Made by a program: the position numbers and the translations under genes. Shown piece after piece: positions 10,363 through 50,042 of a stretch of DNA of 64,000 bases. Positions within the stretch are counted from its first letter, which is position 1. Each line of letters opens with the position of its first letter. The DNA is from an uncultured virus (IMG/VR IMGVR_UViG_3300042544_003275) (Duplodnaviria; Heunggongvirae; Uroviricota; Caudoviricetes): the IMG/VR virus record IMGVR_UViG_3300042544_003275; one strand, given 5' to 3'. Under the pieces are notes generated by a model. That model was not told the DNA's origin, did not search any database, and saw nothing but the letters and a program-made list of their open reading frames with translations.

Positions 10363-10437
10363 ATGACAACAATTTCTACATATTATTATGAGGTCGAGAG
10401 CAAAAGCTCCGTCAGACGAGTAGTGATTATGTCGTAA
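10363..10437 (+). CDS. attenuator leader peptide 1 (MTTISTYYYEVESKSSVRRVVIMS)
   Basis: 24-aa ORF with TAT-TAT-TAT-GAG-GTC-GAG ahead of terminator and Tyr/Glu tRNAs. Confidence 0.8.
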   Translation: MTTISTYYYEVESKSSVRRVVIMS

Positions 10438-11641: not shown

Positions 11642-11722
11642 ATGAAAAATTTAAATAACATATCAACAGCAATAATCGGAGGCGGCGCGGGAGCGAGAGT
11701 CACTGGCTGGATTATGTTGTAA
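11642..11722 (+). CDS. attenuator leader peptide 2 (MKNLNNISTAIIGGGAGARVTGWIML)
   Basis: 26-aa ORF with GCA-ATA-ATC-GGA-GGC-GGC-GCG-GGA-GCG ahead of terminator and Ile/Gly/Ala tRNAs. Confidence 0.8.
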   Translation: MKNLNNISTAIIGGGAGARVTGWIML

Positions 11723-25589: not shown

Positions 25590-25700
25590 ATGAGAACAAT
25601 GAATTTAAATATGAACATTAATACACTGACAGTGGTGAATAATACGTTATGTATTAGACCATCTGAGGGTTTTGTCATATCTAAACGATTTGTTAGTTAA
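25590..25700 (+). CDS. attenuator leader peptide 3 (MRTMNLNMNINTLTVVNNTLCIRPSEGFVISKRFVS)
   Basis: First 23 residues use only M,R,T,N,L,I,V,C, the amino acids of the downstream tRNA array. Confidence 0.85.
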   Translation: MRTMNLNMNINTLTVVNNTLCIRPSEGFVISKRFVS

Positions 25701-28291: not shown

Positions 28292-29764
28292 ATGAAAAAT
28301 ATTGTAACAAGAATCGCACCTTCACCCACTGCTCCATTTTCTCATCTTGGAAATTTGAGAACATTATTATATAACTACTTCCTTGCTAAAAGACACGGTG
28401 GTAAATTCATTGTTCGTTTAGAAGATACGGATCGTGATCGTTATACACCATCTTTCTTAACATATTTTAAGGATATGTGTGACTGGCTTGGTATAGTACC
28501 AGATGCTTCTTATTGGAATCCAGATCCAACTATTGGTTCTTTTGTACAATCAGAAAGAGATTATTCTGATAAAGTTAATTACCTAATTGACGCTGGGTTG
28601 GCTTATTATGCTTTTGATACTAAAGATGATTTAGATGCTCTTAAATCAAAGGGTCTTAAATATGACGCAACTACAAGAATGAGTATGAACAACTCTTTAG
28701 TTATGTCTAAAGATGATTTTGACTCAACGATGAAAAATGGTACTCCATATGTTATTCGTTTTGCGGTAAATCCTGATGTTGATATCACTTTTGATGATGC
28801 TATTTTAGGTACAATTACTATTAGTACAAATACTCTTGATGATAAAGTTTTAATTAAGTCAAATGGTATTGGTTCTTATCATCTTTGTAATGTTTGTGAC
28901 GACCATGATATGGGTGTCTCTCATGTTCTTAGAGGTAACGAGTGGGTAAACTCAACACCTTTTCACATCTTAATGTATAAGGCTTTTGGTTGGGATGTTC
29001 CAACATTCTCTCACTTACCATTGATTATGAATCCAGATGGTAAAGGAAAGTTATCTAAAAGAACTGCTGCTAAATATGGTATTCCAATTGCACCAATTGG
29101 TTACTTTGATGATAATGGTGATTATAACAAAGGTTGGAAAGACCTTGGATATGACCCTAAGGCTTTTATGAACGCACTTGCTTTAATTGGATGGAATCCT
29201 GGTGGTGATGTTGAAATGATGTCTATGAAAGATATGATTGATTCTTTCTCTTTAGATAGAGTTCATAAATCAGGAGCTCGTTTTGATATGGATAAAGCAA
29301 AGTGGATTAACGCTCATCATTTGAGAACAACTCCTAATTCTTGTTTGAGACCATTTATCAATATTAAAGACGATAGATATTCTGATGATAAATTAGATAT
29401 GATTATCGATTTGGCGAAAGAAAGATCTGAATTCAAATCTGACCTGAACACTGTTGTTGATTTATTCTTTGATAACCCTGTTATTACAGATAGAAAGAAG
29501 TTAGATGATAACTATACTTCTGTTATGAGTGACTTTGGTAACAACATTGATAATATTGATTTCACATCAACAGACACGATTAAATCGTCTATCGTAGATA
29601 TCTGTGATAGATTAGGTGTTAAGATTGGTAAAGTGATGCCAGGATTGAGAATGGCACTTGTGGGTGGTATTTCTGGACCAGATTTAATGACCACAATGTT
29701 AATCTTGGATAAGAAAGAAACTAAGAAAAGAATATCACTATCGACAAGTTTACTACATATTTAA
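28292..29764 (+). CDS. gltX: glutamyl-tRNA synthetase
   Basis: TRIAPSPT, HLGN, RLEDTD, LRGNEW, KLSKR. Confidence 0.95.
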   Translation: MKNIVTRIAPSPTAPFSHLGNLRTLLYNYFLAKRHGGKFIVRLEDTDRDRYTPSFLTYFKDMCDWLGIVPDASYWNPDPTIGSFVQSERDYSDKVNYLIDAGLAYYAFDTKDDLDALKSKGLKYDATTRMSMNNSLVMSKDDFDSTMKNGTPYVIRFAVNPDVDITFDDAILGTITISTNTLDDKVLIKSNGIGSYHLCNVCDDHDMGVSHVLRGNEWVNSTPFHILMYKAFGWDVPTFSHLPLIMNPDGKGKLSKRTAAKYGIPIAPIGYFDDNGDYNKGWKDLGYDPKAFMNALALIGWNPGGDVEMMSMKDMIDSFSLDRVHKSGARFDMDKAKWINAHHLRTTPNSCLRPFINIKDDRYSDDKLDMIIDLAKERSEFKSDLNTVVDLFFDNPVITDRKKLDDNYTSVMSDFGNNIDNIDFTSTDTIKSSIVDICDRLGVKIGKVMPGLRMALVGGISGPDLMTTMLILDKKETKKRISLSTSLLHI

Positions 29765-35467: not shown

Positions 35468-36679
35468 ATGAGATATATCAAGAAGTACAACGAAAGTGAG
35501 AACGTTTCAATATTTAGTCAAGAAGTTAAAAATTTCTTTCCTGATAAGATTTATCTTGCTACAACTCAAGGTGATTGGGAGTTTGATAAAAAAGATTTAA
35601 TGTTAAATGGTGATTTAATTCAGATGGCTTACTATCATTGTCCATCAGAACATTCTAATGATGTTTTAAGTGATGGTGAACCTGATTTTTTAGAATTTGA
35701 CATACACACAGCTAAGAACGAAAGAGGAATAAAACTACTTGTTGATATTACATATGGTGATTCAATGGTTTCTGAGTTCTCAATAGAAGCTCCCAATAAG
35801 ATAAATGTGATACACTATACAGGTTCGAGTTCAAAATATGAACCTGAAACATATTTTGGATTTACAGATGAAACTATAAATGATTTGGTTAATTTATTTA
35901 ATTCATTTAATCATGGATTAGAACTAACACCTGATGATTTTAAGTTTATAGATAAAGATCCTGATAGTTATAAACATGATATACATAACTCTGACCATTT
36001 ATACAATGATACATCTGATTTAATTGAATTTGGTAATTCAATGAAAGAATCAACATTAAATGATATTATATTAGTTATTAATAACTCTAAACCACCTGAG
36101 AATAAATATTTATATAAGGTATTAAAATATTTAGATGTTAGAGGTATTGAGTATAAAGTTGCTTCTTCACCAGAGGATATTACTAAATACAATCAAGATT
36201 ATAATATAACTGGTGCTTTATCAACCGGATCTGATTATAGAGTAAAAGATGGTGATGAAGTTAGTTCAACTGCTTTATCTGAATTGGAATGTCCTATTTT
36301 GGCGATGTGTTTTGGATATCAATCAATGGCTAAATTCTATGGTGTTAATATAGATAGTGGTGAAGAGAACTGTGGATTATTTAATTTAAGTGATTATGAT
36401 GATTCACACTTTTTATTCAAAGGTATAGATTTATCTCAACAAAAGGTAAGTTTTTGTTTTCATGATTATCCAAATAGTGTTCCTCAGGGATTTGAAGTAA
36501 TTGCTATGTTAGGTGATGTAATATCTGGAATATCTTCTAAGAATAGATATGGTTTGTTATTTCATCCTGAAGAGTTAGAATCTACATATACTATATTGGA
36601 TAACTTTATAAATAGTTGTAAAGTAAATAAAGGTTCTGAAATGAAATATTTACAAACTTTTGAAAGATTTAGAAAATAA
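35468..36679 (+). CDS. phage domain fused to class I glutamine amidotransferase domain
   Basis: PILAMCFGYQ and LFHPE motifs; MRYIKKYNE start. Confidence 0.75.
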   Translation: MRYIKKYNESENVSIFSQEVKNFFPDKIYLATTQGDWEFDKKDLMLNGDLIQMAYYHCPSEHSNDVLSDGEPDFLEFDIHTAKNERGIKLLVDITYGDSMVSEFSIEAPNKINVIHYTGSSSKYEPETYFGFTDETINDLVNLFNSFNHGLELTPDDFKFIDKDPDSYKHDIHNSDHLYNDTSDLIEFGNSMKESTLNDIILVINNSKPPENKYLYKVLKYLDVRGIEYKVASSPEDITKYNQDYNITGALSTGSDYRVKDGDEVSSTALSELECPILAMCFGYQSMAKFYGVNIDSGEENCGLFNLSDYDDSHFLFKGIDLSQQKVSFCFHDYPNSVPQGFEVIAMLGDVISGISSKNRYGLLFHPEELESTYTILDNFINSCKVNKGSEMKYLQTFERFRK

Positions 36680-37066: not shown

Positions 37067-37150
37067 TTTGGTAGATTAAAAACAAATACATATCTTTGTA
37101 CTATACTATTAAGAAATAGTAAAAAGGAAGAATAATATTTTAATATATAA
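37067..37150 (+). promoter_or_regulatory. tandem promoters upstream of leader 4
   Basis: TTTG..TATCTTTG and AAAAGGAAGAA..TAATATATA. Confidence 0.6.
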
Positions 37151-37156
37151 GAAATA

Positions 37157-37252
37157 ATGAAAACAATTAACGTAAATATCGCACAAGTTAACCCGCAACC
37201 TCAGGATCAGGATTCTAAGGAAGTGACTAACTATGTCTTTACAATAAGTTAA
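37157..37252 (+). CDS. attenuator leader peptide 4 (MKTINVNIAQVNPQPQDQDSKEVTNYVFTIS)
   Basis: PQPQDQD run ahead of terminator and Pro/Asp/Gln tRNAs. Confidence 0.85.
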   Translation: MKTINVNIAQVNPQPQDQDSKEVTNYVFTIS

Positions 37253-37275
37253 TAAAAACATTAAACGATTTGTAT

Positions 37276-37315
37276 AAACCCAGTTAGTCTTTGATTAACT
37301 GGGTTTTTTTTTTTT
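37276..37315 (+). terminator. attenuator terminator 4
   Basis: AAACCCAGTTAGTC-ttt-GATTAACTGGGTTT + T tract; leader GACTAACT complements AGTTAGTC. Confidence 0.9.
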
Positions 37316-37324
37316 AGTAAAAAA

Positions 37325-37398
37325 CGGGTAGTGACTAAGGTTTTAAGCACGGGGGCTCTGGAAGCTTCAGTTAGTCGGTTCGATTCCGACCTACCCGA
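37325..37398 (+). tRNA. tRNA-Pro(TGG), atypical
   Basis: C1:G72, A73; loop TCTGGAA (C33), weak D arm. Confidence 0.6.
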
Positions 37399-37404
37399 CA
37401 AAAT

Positions 37405-37477
37405 GGTCTATTGGTGAAATGGCTTATCATCCCACCCTGTCACGGTGGAGTAGACGGATCGTAACCGTCATAGACCG
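37405..37477 (+). tRNA. tRNA-Asp(GTC)
   Basis: CCACC-CTGTCAC-GGTGG; T loop ATCGTAA. Confidence 0.85.
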
Positions 37478-37539
37478 CACGAAGTATAATTGGACAGAAA
37501 CGTACTCTTTAGGGGATAGAGTAAAAGAATTCTCAAAAC

Positions 37540-37612
37540 GGATGTGAGGTCAAACGGTTAAGATGTCTGCCTGTCACGCAGTTCGGAGCGGGTTCAACTC
37601 CCGTCACGTCCG
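37540..37612 (+). tRNA. tRNA-Asp(GTC)
   Basis: Loop CTGTCAC, G73. Confidence 0.85.
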
Positions 37613-37624
37613 CAAAAATAATAA

Positions 37625-37696
37625 GGTCCTGTCGTCCAATGGTAGGATAACCCGTTGTCTGCGGGATGGTTGCGGGTTCGAGTCCCGTCAGGACCG
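37625..37696 (+). tRNA. tRNA-Asp(GTC)
   Basis: CCCG-TTGTCTG-CGGG, G73. Confidence 0.75.
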
Positions 37697-37707
37697 CTAA
37701 AATATTT

Positions 37708-37783
37708 CGGAGAGTAGAGGAGTCTGGTTTATCTCGGGCCGTTTGGGGCGGTCAGCACGTGGGTTCAAATCCCGCCTCTCCGA
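37708..37783 (+). tRNA. tRNA-Pro(TGG)
   Basis: GGCCG-TTTGGGG-CGGTC, C1:G72. Confidence 0.9.
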
Positions 37784-37803
37784 CAAAAAAATTAAAATTA
37801 AAA

Positions 37804-38049
37804 ATGTTTGTATTCAGAAGAAGTATAACAAATGAAGAATGTGAAGTAGTCGAATTAAAAGGTTCATTAGAAGGTCTTAACTATCGTTTGGATAGTTTAA
37901 TTAATATAAGTAACAGACCTGATAATAGAAGTGACTTAACTGATGAAATAAACCGTGTTAAAAACGAAATTGAAATAAAAGAAATAAAACTAAAAGAAAT
38001 GAGAACATTAGTACAATTCCAGCAACAACAAATTAATCGAACAGATTGA
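37804..38049 (+). CDS. 81-aa coiled-coil ORF whose last 16 codons form leader 5
   Basis: MFVFRRS.. in frame with MRTLVQFQQQQINRTD. Confidence 0.5.
   Translation: MFVFRRSITNEECEVVELKGSLEGLNYRLDSLINISNRPDNRSDLTDEINRVKNEIEIKEIKLKEMRTLVQFQQQQINRTD
37999..38049 (+). CDS. attenuator leader peptide 5 (MRTLVQFQQQQINRTD)
   Basis: Five Gln codons, followed by terminator and two tRNA-Gln. Confidence 0.75.
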   Translation: MRTLVQFQQQQINRTD

Positions 38050-38077
38050 TAATGGAATAATATTGTGTAAACTTTAT

Positions 38078-38111
38078 AAACCCTATTCAATCTTTTGGAT
38101 AGGGTTTTTTT
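38078..38111 (+). terminator. attenuator terminator 5
   Basis: AAACCCTATTCAA-tctt-TTGGATAGGGTTT + T tract. Confidence 0.85.
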
Positions 38112-38113
38112 AT

Positions 38114-38184
38114 TGTTGAGTCGTCTAATGGCAGGACACATGATTTTGGCTCATGTAATGGTGGTTCGAGTCCACCCCCGACAA
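38114..38184 (+). tRNA. tRNA-Gln(TTG)
   Basis: CATGA-TTTTGGC-TCATG, U1:A72. Confidence 0.85.
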
Positions 38185-38191
38185 CAAACAT

Positions 38192-38263
38192 TGAGAAGTC
38201 GTCTAATGGCAGGATACCTGACTTTGAATCAGGAAGATGTAGGTTCGACCCCTACCTTCTCAA
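38192..38263 (+). tRNA. tRNA-Gln(TTG)
   Basis: CCTGA-CTTTGAA-TCAGG, U1:A72. Confidence 0.9.
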
Positions 38264-38297
38264 CAAAAAATTAATATTGCTTTTAATATATAATCGT

Positions 38298-38996
38298 ATG
38301 AAAGCAATATTATTTACATTAATGACATTACTAATTAGTTGTAGTGTTATAGGTCAAAAAAATAGAGAGTTATATGAACAATCTATGATTAATTCTATCA
38401 GACCTGATAGTTCTAAAATCTATACTAACTTAGTTCAGATTAATGATAGTAACAAAACACTTATCAGAAAAAATATTAATGGTGAAGAGTATATCTTAGT
38501 TTGTACTTGGAAACAAAACGTTTCTTTTTATCAAAAAGATACAGTATTTAATACTGGTAGTTATCCAATCTGGGTAACAACTGCTCCTGAATTAAAAAAT
38601 AGAATTCAGAAAGAATCACCTAAAGATACAAATTTAAGATTAGTTCAATTGTTGGGTTTGCCACCGAGTGCTAAGTATAGTTACTTTGTTGAATTTTGGG
38701 TTAGACCAGTTGATTTATTTAGACCGTGTCCAGATAGTGAGATAAATGATGGTACTTGTGATTTATGTTTTCCAGAAGGAACTTCACAAGAACATATTGA
38801 TTGGATTAATGAGAATCGAATTTCAAGATACTATCAATGTGATTTATATTATCAGTATCCTTGGGGTCAATTAGGATATACTTATGATTGGAATCCTAAA
38901 AACAAATCTCATGTTGGTTTAAGTGAATTTATTATTAAAACCAATACTATTATTTATGTAAATAGAATAGTAACTACTTCAGAGTATTTAAGATAA
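38298..38996 (+). CDS. secreted/lipoprotein-like hypothetical protein
   Basis: Signal peptide MKAILFTLMTLLISC; RLVQLLGLPP, YPWGQLGYTYDW. Confidence 0.65.
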   Translation: MKAILFTLMTLLISCSVIGQKNRELYEQSMINSIRPDSSKIYTNLVQINDSNKTLIRKNINGEEYILVCTWKQNVSFYQKDTVFNTGSYPIWVTTAPELKNRIQKESPKDTNLRLVQLLGLPPSAKYSYFVEFWVRPVDLFRPCPDSEINDGTCDLCFPEGTSQEHIDWINENRISRYYQCDLYYQYPWGQLGYTYDWNPKNKSHVGLSEFIIKTNTIIYVNRIVTTSEYLR

Positions 38997-48557: not shown

Positions 48558-48815
48558 TTTGGCAGATTGAAATAGTCTCCATATCTTTGTATTCACAATA
48601 AAAGATTAAAAATATACTTGGATTGAAAAATTCCAGTGGTTGGAAAACCTACTCGCAAAGTAAAGACTAATTGTTGGTATATTTTTTATAAAAGATTTGG
48701 TAGATTAAAATAAAATACTTATCTTTGTAAAACAAATCAGAAACGTCTGATATAAGTTAAACAAAAAATCTTTACAAAAGATTTGGTAGATTGAAAAAGT
48801 TTACTTATCTTTGTA
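48558..48815 (+). promoter_or_regulatory. three tandem Bacteroidota-type promoters
   Basis: TTTGG(C/T)AGATT...TATCTTTGTA at ~48558, ~48696 and ~48782. Confidence 0.7.
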
Positions 48816-48849
48816 AAACAAAATTGAAATAAAGAGTATAAAAATATAT

Positions 48850-48922
48850 CGCGGAGTAGAGAAGTTGGAATCTCGTCAGGCTCATAACCTGAAGGTCACT
48901 GGTTCGAGTCCAGTCTCCGCTA
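48850..48922 (+). tRNA. tRNA-Met(CAT), initiator-like
   Basis: C1:U72 mismatch, loop CTCATAA. Confidence 0.9.
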
Positions 48923-48944
48923 CTAAACAGTTCTCAACGGAGAA

Positions 48945-49860
48945 CAACGTTCTTTGAAGTATTAAAAATTTTACTGAAACTCGACTTCGGTCTTAGTTCT
49001 TCGGAACAGAGTGTGTAAGTAAAGGGCGGCTTATAGTCCTTAAATAAACCTCGAAAGGGGGATAAAGTGGATACAAATGCTAATTGTATCTGCGTCTTGA
49101 GAGTTCTTCGGAACAATTGAGGTCGAGTAAGCAAGTGGGACACCACAAGTTCTGAGTAGTCGAGGGTAACACTGTAGACCAAATGAGTTTGTGACCGGGC
49201 AATTGTAGATTGTTTGGTTGACCTCGGAAGAGGAATAGGAATAACCCATAGGAATTATGTAAGAAATAAAGACTCACCGGTTTTTACTATTGCGAGTTCC
49301 AACTTAAAAGGTGTCTTAAAGTTGAAAGACAATCAGTTGTACAGGTGGTGCTGTTAATTGACACTAATCTCCCTACCAAGGGAGTAGATAAACCGAAAGG
49401 TGAGTCGTGGTGAAGATATCTTGAAGAGTTGTGATGGAGGCATCACACGGAGTAGTCCAGTATTCTTGAGACCAAAAGTCATGAGAGCTGAGAGGTGACC
49501 ACTACTTCGACATAATCTACTAGCACTAAATTTCTAACTGTTAATTGGAAACATTTAAAAATAAGAAATCAAAAGTGTTACCTAGTTACTGATGAAAGGT
49601 ACCTACTTAGTCGTGAGTGTTCACGGCCACTGAAGCTCGAAAGGCCGATGTGATTTCATCGAAAAACTTATAGAGGGTCGAACCTCGAATCAGCTCGCAA
49701 GGTTGAATAAGCGGATTAAATGGAGAGTAAACAGTAACTCAAGGAGTGGTTAGTCTAACTAACCGGTACTGACAGAATACTACTCAAAAGGTAGTGGATA
49801 AGTTTGGGAAATCATAATCCAACTAAAGATCTGTCGTATAGGATGTAATCTCAGTCCTTT
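48945..49860 (+). ncRNA. large structured non-coding RNA (GOLLD-like candidate)
   Basis: ~900 nt, raised GC, no credible ORF, many UUCG/GNRA hairpins, flanked by tRNAs. Confidence 0.6.
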
Positions 49861-49867
49861 TTTATAT

Positions 49868-49956
49868 GGCCTGTTCGTCTAGGGGAATACTTTCATAGAA
49901 AGTAGGATGGATATCTCTTCAGATATCAGACATTGGTTCGAATCCAATACAGGCTA
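49868..49956 (+). tRNA. tRNA-Glu-like with D-loop hairpin insertion and 8-nt anticodon loop
   Basis: GGCCTGT/ACAGGCT acceptor, GATAT-CTCTTCAG-ATATC. Confidence 0.55.
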
Positions 49957-50042
49957 CAAGTTTTCGTAGTGGTTAACTTTCCCTTTAATTAGGGGGTCTA
50001 CTGAAATAAGTAAGTAGGGTGGTTACCAAACACCACACAAAT

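What the first reader, a model, noticed from the sequence alone, without database searches (positions are those of the whole stretch)
37804..38263. Attenuator 5: nested Gln gate whose leader is also the tail of a longer ORF
Seen: MRTLVQFQQQQINRTD (A-rich context before its ATG) is in frame with an 81-aa ORF, followed by a terminator and two tRNA-Gln(TTG). AGATTGA at the leader end complements TCAATCT in the hairpin; this anti-terminator is weaker than the other four. Inference: serial logic, in which Gln shortage opens gate 4 and gate 5 while Pro or Asp shortage opens only gate 4. This would explain the Gln codons in leader 4.
Basis: partly seen in the sequence, partly recalled or inferred. 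Interest (0 to 1): 0.85.

Follow-up and report, generated by a model that had tools for sequence, protein, structure and literature searches.

The report
Glutamine-sensing switch before phage tRNA genes
A tiny glutamine-rich test gene and a switchable transcription stop sit directly in front of a giant lake phage's two glutamine tRNA genes, so the phage probably makes more of this tRNA only when ribosomes read glutamine codons slowly; here the test gene is also the tail of a longer conserved gene.

Summary
ORF 37804-38049 (81 aa) ends in a 16-codon leader (ATG 37999) with the only QQQQ run in the window's six-frame translation. An intrinsic terminator follows (38078-38107), and its T-run ends 2 nt before two tRNA-Gln(TTG) genes.

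I found the same unit in 17 other loci of huge uncultured phages. It is usually a free-standing 15-26 codon ORF, often followed by tRNA-Gln genes and then GlnRS. In loci found through GlnRS alone, 10 of 11 with a tRNA-Gln array carry it. None of 2 without tRNA-Gln do, and 1 of 80 bacterial glnS loci does.

All 18 fold into the classical alternative structures. Region 2, which includes the stop codon, pairs either with region 1 or with the terminator's 5' arm. The window's antiterminator is the weakest (-9.6 vs -16.0 kcal/mol).

The long-ORF form is conserved: 25 of 27 protein homologues keep the Gln tail. In-frame fusion recurs with endonuclease ORFs in other lineages.

Nesting behind the Pro/Asp unit is supported, because no promoter motif lies between them. 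The claim that nesting explains the Gln codons in leader 4 is not specifically supported.

No experiment exists, and my searches found no published account. Earlier notes of this scan report the same kind of element in other phage DNA.

The parts
37067..37098 (+). Nearest upstream promoter-like motif (TTTG-N-TAnnTTTG, the type in front of the other tRNA units). It is presumed to drive both the Pro/Asp unit and, by read-through, the Gln unit.
   Evidence: 16 such motifs in the window against 5.4 expected; no TAnnTTTG on the + strand between 37099 and 39630.
37157..37306 (+). Upstream gate: leader 4 ORF (37157-37252, with interleaved Pro, Gln and Asp codons) and its terminator (37276-37306).
   Evidence: Conserved in L001, L002, L009, L017, L019-L021, L026, L027 and L030.
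37325..37784 (+). tRNA array between the two gates: an atypical tRNA-Pro-like gene (37325-37399), three tRNA-Asp genes and one tRNA-Pro(TGG).
   Evidence: ARAGORN at a relaxed threshold for the first gene.
37804..38049 (+). 81-aa ORF whose last 16 codons are the Gln leader. The 65-codon N-terminal extension is coiled-coil-like, matches no family and contains no Gln.
   Evidence: 27 homologues of 53-92 aa (24 of them 77-83 aa) at 69-100% identity; 25 of 27 keep the Gln-run tail; no Pfam hit above cutoff.
37999..38049 (+). Leader ORF proper (16 codons), free-standing in most relatives.
38020..38031 (+). Regulatory run of four Gln codons (CAG CAA CAA CAA). A further CAA lies at 38014-38016.
38032..38038 (+). 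Region 1 (ATTAATC, the Ile-Asn codons), which pairs with region 2.
   Evidence: hairpin of -4.9 kcal/mol. An equivalent hairpin is predicted in 16 of 18 loci.
38043..38055 (+). Region 2: AGATTGA(T), which includes the Asp codon and the TGA stop, plus GG at 38054-38055. It pairs either with region 1 or with the terminator 5' arm.
38078..38111 (+). Intrinsic terminator: 5' arm 38078-38090, loop 38091-38094, 3' arm 38095-38107, T-run 38105-38111. Region 3 consists of CC at 38082-38083 and TCAATCT at 38087-38093.
   Evidence: (terminator -16.0 kcal/mol, antiterminator -9.6).
38114..38264 (+). The regulated genes: two tRNA-Gln(TTG), at 38114-38185 and 38192-38264.

Best explanation
This is a ribosome-mediated (leader-peptide) transcription attenuator that measures how fast ribosomes decode Gln codons and gates transcription into the phage's own tRNA-Gln genes.

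Shown by sequence:
- A translatable leader carries a CAG/CAA run.
- Region 1 follows the run directly. Region 2 contains the leader's stop codon.
- An intrinsic terminator follows, and its 5' arm is complementary to region 2.
- The tRNA genes start 2 nt after the T-run, so they can only be reached by reading through the terminator.

Inferred mechanism:
- With ample Gln-tRNA(Gln), the ribosome runs to the TGA and covers region 2. The terminator forms and RNA polymerase stops.
- With scarce Gln-tRNA(Gln), the ribosome stalls on the Gln run and covers region 1. Region 2 is freed to pair with the terminator's 5' arm, and polymerase reads into the tRNA-Gln genes. In most relatives it then reads on into GlnRS.
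- With no ribosome, the window's leader prefers the region 1:2 fold, so the terminator forms.

In this window the unit has no recognisable promoter of its own. It sits behind the Pro/Asp attenuator and array, so it acts as a second gate in series.

Ribosomes can enter the Gln run from ATG 37999 or, in the same frame, from ATG 37804 of the conserved 81-aa ORF.
For: Anatomy in the window.

Conservation:
- The unit (short ORF with 4-7 Gln codons, terminator, then 2-4 tRNA-Gln genes) occurs in 17 further loci. Two are phage records of 634 and 642 kb. Five of the 9 metagenome pattern hits are true homologues.
- Independently of the leader's sequence, it occurs in 10 of the 11 GlnRS-anchored IMG/VR loci that have a tRNA-Gln array.
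- It is absent from the 2 loci where GlnRS has no tRNA-Gln in front of it.
- It appears in 1 of 80 bacterial glnS loci, and 0 of 80 have an upstream tRNA-Gln.

Translation-type constraint:
- ATG and an in-frame stop are kept in 18 of 18 loci.
- The number of Gln codons varies by whole codons, and CAA and CAG interchange.

Structure:
- In 18 of 18 loci the minimum-energy fold of the RNA available to a stalled complex pairs region 2 with the terminator 5' arm (-9.6 to -18.2 kcal/mol).
- At most 5% of dinucleotide shuffles reach the observed energy in 17 of 18 loci.
- L022 and L031 achieve the same alternative pairings with unrelated sequences.
- The four variants of the region 3 heptamer differ only at the two positions where wobble keeps pairing with the invariant AGATTGA.
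- In the window, the ribosome-free leader folds regions 1:2 (-12.3) rather than 2:3.

Placement: the T-run ends 2 nt before the tRNA in 15 of 18 loci.

Context: four other leader-terminator units in the window match the amino acids of their tRNA arrays. The true pairing scores best of 120 permutations.
Against: - There is no experimental evidence. Metatranscriptome contigs did not cover the leader.
- The window's antiterminator is weak: -9.6 against -16.0 kcal/mol for the terminator. It sequesters 6 of 13 arm bases, which 59% of shuffles also do.
- In most relatives the 2:3 pairing is already the minimum-energy fold without any ribosome. There the default state may be read-through rather than termination, unlike trp.
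- I ran no shuffle control for the region 1:2 hairpin, which is weak or absent in L027 and L030.
- Promoter absence rests on one motif class and an assumed Bacteroidetes-type host.
- More tRNA-Gln helps only if tRNA, not glutamine or charging, is limiting. In this window no GlnRS follows the tRNAs.
- The 18 loci fall into about nine sequence types, so they are not 18 independent observations.
Confidence: 0.75

Rival explanations
1. The same switch exists, but the signal it evolved to read is loss of functional tRNA-Gln rather than glutamine starvation. Such loss could come from phage codon demand outrunning host supply, or from host nucleases that cut tRNAs. The chained leaders would then form a codon-by-codon tRNA top-up system.
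For: - The output is tRNA genes, not biosynthetic genes.
- The leader co-occurs with tRNA-Gln arrays, not with GlnRS alone: 10 of 11 loci with an array against 0 of 2 without.
- 4 of the window's 5 Gln codons are CAA, read by the encoded TTG anticodon.
- Every tRNA array examined in the window has a matching leader.
Against: - Sequence cannot tell which upstream cause slows decoding.
- No tRNA-targeting defence against tRNA-Gln was examined here.
- CAA dominance is expected anyway in AT-rich DNA.
Confidence: 0.3
2. The hairpin is just the terminator of the 81-aa gene or the upstream tRNA operon. The Gln run is a functional or incidental poly-Gln tail. tRNA-Gln is made by leaky read-through or from an unrecognised promoter.
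For: - The 81-aa ORF is conserved as a whole.
- The window's antiterminator is weak.
- A sigma-70-like match lies at 38046-38073.
Against: - In most relatives the leader stands alone at 15-26 codons with no protein attached.
- The alternative pairings are conserved, even with unrelated sequences.
- The T-run abuts the tRNA.
- Sigma-70-like matches are no more frequent than in shuffles: 16 against 19.4 expected.
- A start from that match would lie inside the terminator.
Confidence: 0.07
3. The switch is translation-independent. The CAA repeats or the folded leader bind tRNA-Gln or a protein directly, in the manner of T-box or TRAP control.
For: The repeated CAA could in principle pair with the UUG anticodon. 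The regulated genes are tRNAs.
Against: - No Rfam family other than tRNA and GOLLD reaches its gathering score in the window.
- ATG, reading frame and stop are conserved in 18 of 18 loci. The stop always lies in or just after region 2. Only a ribosome-based mechanism explains this.
Confidence: 0.03

Closest known systems
pheST attenuator of Escherichia coli (pheM leader). Recalled from textbook knowledge and named in earlier scan notes, not tested here.
   Same: A short leader with a run of cognate codons and a terminator controls a gene of the translation-supply chain. In relatives of this phage the same transcript runs on into GlnRS.
   Different: - The first and, in this window, only recognisable regulated products are tRNA genes.
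- The amino acid is Gln.
- The element is phage-borne.
- It is chained behind another attenuator.
- The leader can be the tail of a longer ORF.
Leader-peptide attenuators of amino-acid operons (trp, his, leu, thr, ilv, pheA). The general mechanism is as in the abstract of PMC1183508 (search listing).
   Same: Both have regulatory codons, the region 1:2, 2:3 and 3:4 alternatives, a stop codon that places the ribosome on region 2, and about 80 nt from the codon run to the end of the terminator.
   Different: - The regulated product is RNA, not biosynthetic enzymes.
- No Rfam leader family matches.
- In many relatives 2:3 is favoured even without a ribosome.
His-codon leader peptides before hisS/hisZ in bacilli (PMC2965389, passages read).
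   Same: A leader peptide controls an aminoacyl-tRNA synthetase outside Proteobacteria, and was found by comparative terminator analysis.
   Different: It is bacterial, controls protein-coding targets only and involves no tRNA genes. That paper's text has 0 occurrences of 'tRNA gene' or 'tRNA operon'.
T-box leaders.
   Same: They couple tRNA charging status to read-through of a terminator before translation-supply genes.
   Different: They bind tRNA directly without translation. No T-box match was found in the window. Here a conserved ORF does the sensing.
Leader-terminator units before phage tRNA arrays, noted earlier by this scan in other genomes. These are AI notes, not publications.
   Same: The design is the same: a shared promoter, a codon-matched leader, a switchable terminator and a tRNA array.
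   Different: - This unit is single-amino-acid (Gln only).
- It is nested behind another unit.
- It is linked to GlnRS in relatives.
- It is embedded in frame in longer ORFs.

Membership tests
Ribosome-mediated leader-peptide transcription attenuators | Short translatable ORF upstream of the regulated genes | tested here: met
   ATG 37999 to TGA 38049, 16 codons, with 15 A in the 20 nt upstream. ATG and stop are kept in 18 of 18 loci.
Ribosome-mediated leader-peptide transcription attenuators | Run of codons cognate to the regulated function | tested here: met
   5 Gln in 15 residues against 0.4 expected. It is the only QQQQ in six frames of 64 kb. All 18 loci have 4-7 Gln codons. The downstream genes are tRNA-Gln.
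Ribosome-mediated leader-peptide transcription attenuators | Intrinsic terminator between the leader and the regulated genes | tested here: met
   38078-38107 plus a T-run, -16.0 kcal/mol. The T-run ends 2 nt before the tRNA.
Ribosome-mediated leader-peptide transcription attenuators | An antiterminator that excludes the terminator, with its 5' strand covered by a ribosome at the stop codon | tested here: met
   Region 2 (38043-38055) contains the TGA and pairs with 38082-38083 and 38087-38093. It is predicted in 18 of 18 loci. In the window it is weak: -9.6 kcal/mol, reached by 2.7% of shuffles.
Ribosome-mediated leader-peptide transcription attenuators | Region 1:2 hairpin that holds region 2 when no ribosome stalls | tested here: inconclusive
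   It is predicted at -4.9 kcal/mol in the window, where the ribosome-free fold is 1:2 (-12.3 with an outer stem). It is present in 16 of 18 loci. In most relatives 2:3 is the free-RNA minimum. I ran no shuffle control.
Ribosome-mediated leader-peptide transcription attenuators | Regulated genes encode amino-acid biosynthesis enzymes or an aminoacyl-tRNA synthetase | tested here: not met
   In the window the genes directly behind the terminator are two tRNA-Gln genes. No GlnRS lies nearby. In L001, L002, L009, L014, L017 and 10 IMG/VR loci, GlnRS follows the tRNAs.
Ribosome-mediated leader-peptide transcription attenuators | Codon-dependent read-through shown experimentally | not testable with these tools
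   Only contigs of RNA libraries were available, and none covered the leader.
Rfam leader families (Trp, His, Leu, Thr and similar leaders) and T-box | Match to the family covariance model at its gathering score | tested here: not met
   cmscan of the whole window gave 32 matches: 31 tRNA and 1 GOLLD, with no leader or T-box family.

The most novel reading that the evidence does not exclude
Huge phages run a modular, codon-by-codon tRNA supply controller. Each tRNA block is gated by its own decoding-speed sensor, the sensors can be chained in series, and this Gln module travels with its tRNAs and GlnRS as a unit.

The leader's reading frame is itself under selection. Genes that land between the preceding tRNA and the leader survive only if they run in frame into it. 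These include a 65-codon coiled-coil ORF here and HNH or DUF559 endonuclease ORFs elsewhere. In-frame fusion would let their ribosomes still read the Gln codons, so the leader doubles as a shared C-terminal tail. The sensed quantity may be tRNA loss inflicted by the host rather than amino-acid starvation.
Probability: 0.3. Interest if true: 0.88.

Novelty: new variant of a known kind. Interest (0 to 1): 0.8.

Why it matters
Leader-peptide attenuation is a textbook device for amino-acid operons and a few synthetase genes. Using it to gate tRNA genes would mean a virus measures the decoding speed of single codon families and tops up exactly the tRNAs that are short.

That gives a concrete, testable answer to a long-standing question: why large phages carry tRNA arrays and how they control them.

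This unit is the cleanest case for a test. It senses one amino acid and has a small, conserved switch, and natural variants exist with and without their own promoter, GlnRS or an attached ORF. The recurrent in-frame embedding of the leader in longer ORFs suggests a previously unnoticed constraint on where mobile genes can settle.

Tried and rejected
- **IMG/VR scan with the post-stop motif.** 6 hits, 0 homologues; all lie in coding context of unrelated genes.
- **Metagenome pattern scan.** 4 of 9 hits (L010, L012, L013, L016) were chance matches and were dropped.
- **No whole genome held for the window.** A genome-wide survey was therefore not possible.
- **Search for the 81-aa ORF in IMG/VR.** 69 pattern matches, none confirmed.
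- **Search for longer fused forms in the protein database.** 78 candidates, none scored. This is weak evidence.
- **ESM Atlas.** No usable hit.
- **Public RNA runs.** Only Logan contigs were available. The three metatranscriptome runs (X17, X18, X20) gave short contigs over tRNA genes and parts of the Pro/Asp unit, and none over 37804-38106. One contig of X15 spans 37787-38274 in a diverged relative, but that library is only guessed to be RNA. Nothing can be said about expression, ends or read-through.
- **Column-wise covariation on alignment A3.** Abandoned because MAFFT puts the different terminator types out of register. I used per-sequence folds with shuffles instead.
- **First antiterminator run with a fixed start 12 nt before the stop.** It missed region 2 in L022, L023, L024 and L031, where the stop lies further downstream. 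One search replaced it.
- **Sigma-70-type promoter scan.** 16 sites against 19.4 expected, so no signal.
- **Link between CAG codons in the leader and a tRNA-Gln(CTG) downstream.** None apparent on reading.
- **Nascent-peptide arrest by the conserved C-terminus.** Rejected, because distant relatives share no peptide beyond the final Asp.
- **Inheritance of the leader from a host glnS.** Rejected on 1 of 80 and 0 of 80.

Full report
**What the window is.**
- It is AT-rich DNA with 33 tRNA genes and a GOLLD RNA.
- Its only long DNA relatives in the phage collection are uncultured phage records of 634,780 and 642,428 bp.
- Genomes of more than 634 kb were assigned to the Mahaphage clade with predicted Bacteroidetes hosts by Al-Shayeb et al. 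2020 (PMC7162821, passages read). I infer the link from genome sizes only.
- A bipartite motif, TTTG-N17-23-TAnnTTTG, occurs 16 times against 5.4 expected and stands in front of the tRNA units. I recall this as the Bacteroidetes promoter type. That attribution is not tested here.

**Observation.**
- The 81-aa ORF is at 37804-38049.
- An in-frame ATG at 37999 opens a 16-codon leader.
- The Gln run is at 38020-38031.
- AGATTGA is at 38043-38049 and includes the TGA stop.
- The terminator is at 38078-38107 with its T-run to 38111. TCAATCT is at 38087-38093.
- tRNA-Gln(TTG) genes are at 38114-38185 and 38192-38264.
- The QQQQ run is unique in the six-frame translation of the window.

**Relatives.**
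- The two phage records carry free-standing 16- and 17-codon ORFs with 7 Gln codons each. A conserved post-stop motif, a terminator, 3-4 tRNA-Gln genes and a GlnRS gene follow.
- A metagenome scan with a motif spanning region 2 gave 9 loci. Five are homologues (L009, L011, L014, L015, L017) and 4 are chance matches. All eight loci, counting the window, have 2-4 tRNA-Gln genes directly behind the terminator.
- Those loci were found through the element itself, so I made a second, independent collection through the GlnRS protein. It gave 14 IMG/VR loci on contigs of up to 518 kb.
- Eleven of the 14 have a tRNA-Gln array before GlnRS with enough upstream sequence. Ten of these 11 carry a short ORF with 4-7 Gln codons and a terminator just before the first tRNA-Gln. 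L028 does not.
- One locus is cut off. The two loci without tRNA-Gln have no such leader. The leader therefore goes with the tRNA genes, not with GlnRS as such.
- Negative control: of the 80 bacterial glnS loci most similar to the phage enzyme (48-58% identity, mostly Bacteroidota), 1 has a Gln-rich short ORF within 450 nt upstream. None has a tRNA-Gln there.

**RNA architecture.** Folding shows the classical four regions.
- Region 1 (38032-38038, the two codons after the Gln run) pairs with region 2 (38044-38050, the Asp codon plus TGA). The hairpin scores -4.9 kcal/mol. In the window an outer stem (38016-38021 with 38053-38058) extends it to -12.3, and this is the minimum-energy fold of the ribosome-free leader.
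- I then masked the RNA up to 7 nt past the Gln run and excluded the terminator's 3' arm. Region 2 plus GG 38054-38055 then pairs with the terminator's 5' arm (TCAATCT and CC).
- The same rearrangement is the minimum-energy fold in 18 of 18 loci, from -9.6 kcal/mol (window, the weakest) to -18.2. The terminators score -13.8 to -19.5.
- Dinucleotide shuffles of the upstream strand reach the observed energy in at most 5% of trials in 17 of 18 loci. L023 is the exception at 5.7%.

Caveats:
- The count of sequestered arm bases is not exceptional in several loci. In the window it is 6 of 13, and 59% of shuffles reach that.
- The 18 loci form roughly nine sequence types.
- In most relatives 2:3 is already favoured without a ribosome. 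Their default state may be read-through.

The strongest comparative points:
- L022 and L031 build the same alternatives from unrelated sequences.
- The region 3 heptamer occurs in four variants that differ only where wobble keeps pairing with the invariant region 2.
- The stop codon lies in or just after region 2 in every locus.
- The T-run ends 2 nt before the tRNA in 15 of 18 loci. That leaves no room for a promoter behind the terminator.

**The longer ORF.**
- The 81-aa ORF has 27 database homologues at 69-100% identity: 24 of 77-83 aa, three fragments of 53-59 aa, and one of 92 aa with a divergent tail.
- 25 of 27 keep the Gln run and the C-terminal tail. Indels are whole codons, and the 65-residue extension contains no Gln in any of them.
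- It matches no Pfam family above cutoff and nothing in the Atlas.
- The look-up finds only called proteins, so broken copies would be missed. I could not obtain homologue DNA for a codon-position test.
- The extension is lineage-specific. In L026, a close relative, the leader is free-standing behind its own -7 box.

Embedding is not unique to this lineage.
- In L014 the leader is the in-frame end of a 189-aa HNH endonuclease ORF (PF13391, 24.9 bits against a cutoff of 21).
- In L027 and L030 it is the in-frame end of 309- and 308-aa DUF559 ORFs. These are 79% identical to each other.
- By eye, these endonuclease ORFs share an N-terminal domain, so they may be one mobile family.
- In all, 5 of 18 loci from at least two unrelated ORF families have the leader as an in-frame tail. 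These are exactly the loci where a gene lies between the preceding tRNA and the leader without a new promoter.
- Where a -7 box precedes the leader (L017, L024, L026), the upstream gene ends before it.
- I read this as a hint that out-of-frame translation across the leader is selected against. The numbers are small.

**Nesting.**
- In the window, no promoter motif of the local type lies on the + strand between 37099 and 39630. The nearest is at 37067-37098, before leader 4.
- In 7 relatives the leader starts 29-59 nt after a tRNA.
- The Gln unit is therefore most simply transcribed by polymerases that have already passed the Pro/Asp gate.
All 11 leader-4 homologues I read keep interleaved Gln codons whether or not the Gln unit is nested. 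In L026 a tRNA-Gln lies inside the Pro/Asp array.

**Mechanism and rivals.** These are given in the structured fields. The main open point within the favoured model is what slows decoding: glutamine, charging, or tRNA loss.

**Literature.**
- Six full-text searches returned no paper describing leader-peptide control of tRNA genes.
- PMC7162821 has no occurrence of 'attenuat' or 'leader'.
- PMC2965389 describes His leader peptides before hisS but has no 'tRNA gene' or 'tRNA operon'.
- Supplements were not consulted. Subscription journals are not covered.

**Earlier notes of this scan.**
- Earlier AI notes report the same kind of element before tRNA arrays of other phages, and Gln leaders before bacterial glnS. 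They are leads, not support.
- None overlaps this DNA.

**Verdict.** This is a real, conserved, well-formed attenuator of a known mechanistic kind applied to an undescribed target. It is nested in series and embedded in a longer ORF, and it is unproven experimentally.

Noticed in passing
window 49448-49857 (with 48558-48923): A GOLLD RNA (278.7 bits) lies directly before a tRNA-Ser gene (49868-49957). Three tandem copies of the promoter-like motif (48558, 48696, 48782) and a tRNA-Met (48850-48923) stand upstream of it.
   Followed up: no
window 37325-37399; L001 2763-2837 and 3335-3412; L002 2773-2846 and 3231-3306: A conserved atypical tRNA-Pro-like gene has C at position 33 and a weak D arm. 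It scores 29.5 bits in Rfam and ARAGORN calls it only at a relaxed threshold. L001 has two copies, with anticodons TGG and AGG.
   Followed up: partly
L001 3258-3331; L009 2721-2792; L014 (reverse orientation) 2013-2083; L015 339-409; L019 1744-1815: ARAGORN reports tRNAs with 4-letter (gtag) or 2-letter (gt, gg) anticodons inside the Pro/Asp arrays of relatives. They may have odd anticodon loops or be decayed copies.
   Followed up: no
window 28292-29764: A GluRS-type synthetase (tRNA-synt_1c at 237 bits plus Anticodon_2) lies about 1 kb after the large tRNA array. No GlnRS is in the window, unlike relatives where GlnRS follows the tRNA-Gln genes.
   Followed up: partly
window 10363-10437, 11642-11722, 25590-25700, 37157-37252: Four further leader-terminator units match the amino acids of the tRNA arrays behind them: Tyr/Glu; Ile/Gly/Ala; Asn/Ile/Arg/Leu/Val/Thr; and Pro/Asp with Gln. 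All leaders begin with ATGA-AAC-like codons, and most follow a near-identical promoter-like motif.
   Followed up: partly
L017 (reverse orientation) 850-960: A second promoter-like motif lies between the leader-4 terminator and the Asp/Pro tRNAs. It would bypass that gate in this relative.
   Followed up: no
L011 450-962: A 2OG-Fe(II) oxygenase (AlkB-like, PF13532, 84 bits) is inserted between the tRNA-Gln genes and the lipoprotein-like gene in a near-identical relative. It is absent from the window.
   Followed up: partly
window 38298-38996 and 35468-36679: The gene after the tRNA-Gln pair encodes a 232-aa protein with a signal-peptide/lipobox-like start and no family. No terminator lies between, so it may be co-transcribed. 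Upstream of the Pro/Asp unit lies a 403-aa protein with a class-I glutamine amidotransferase domain.
   Followed up: partly
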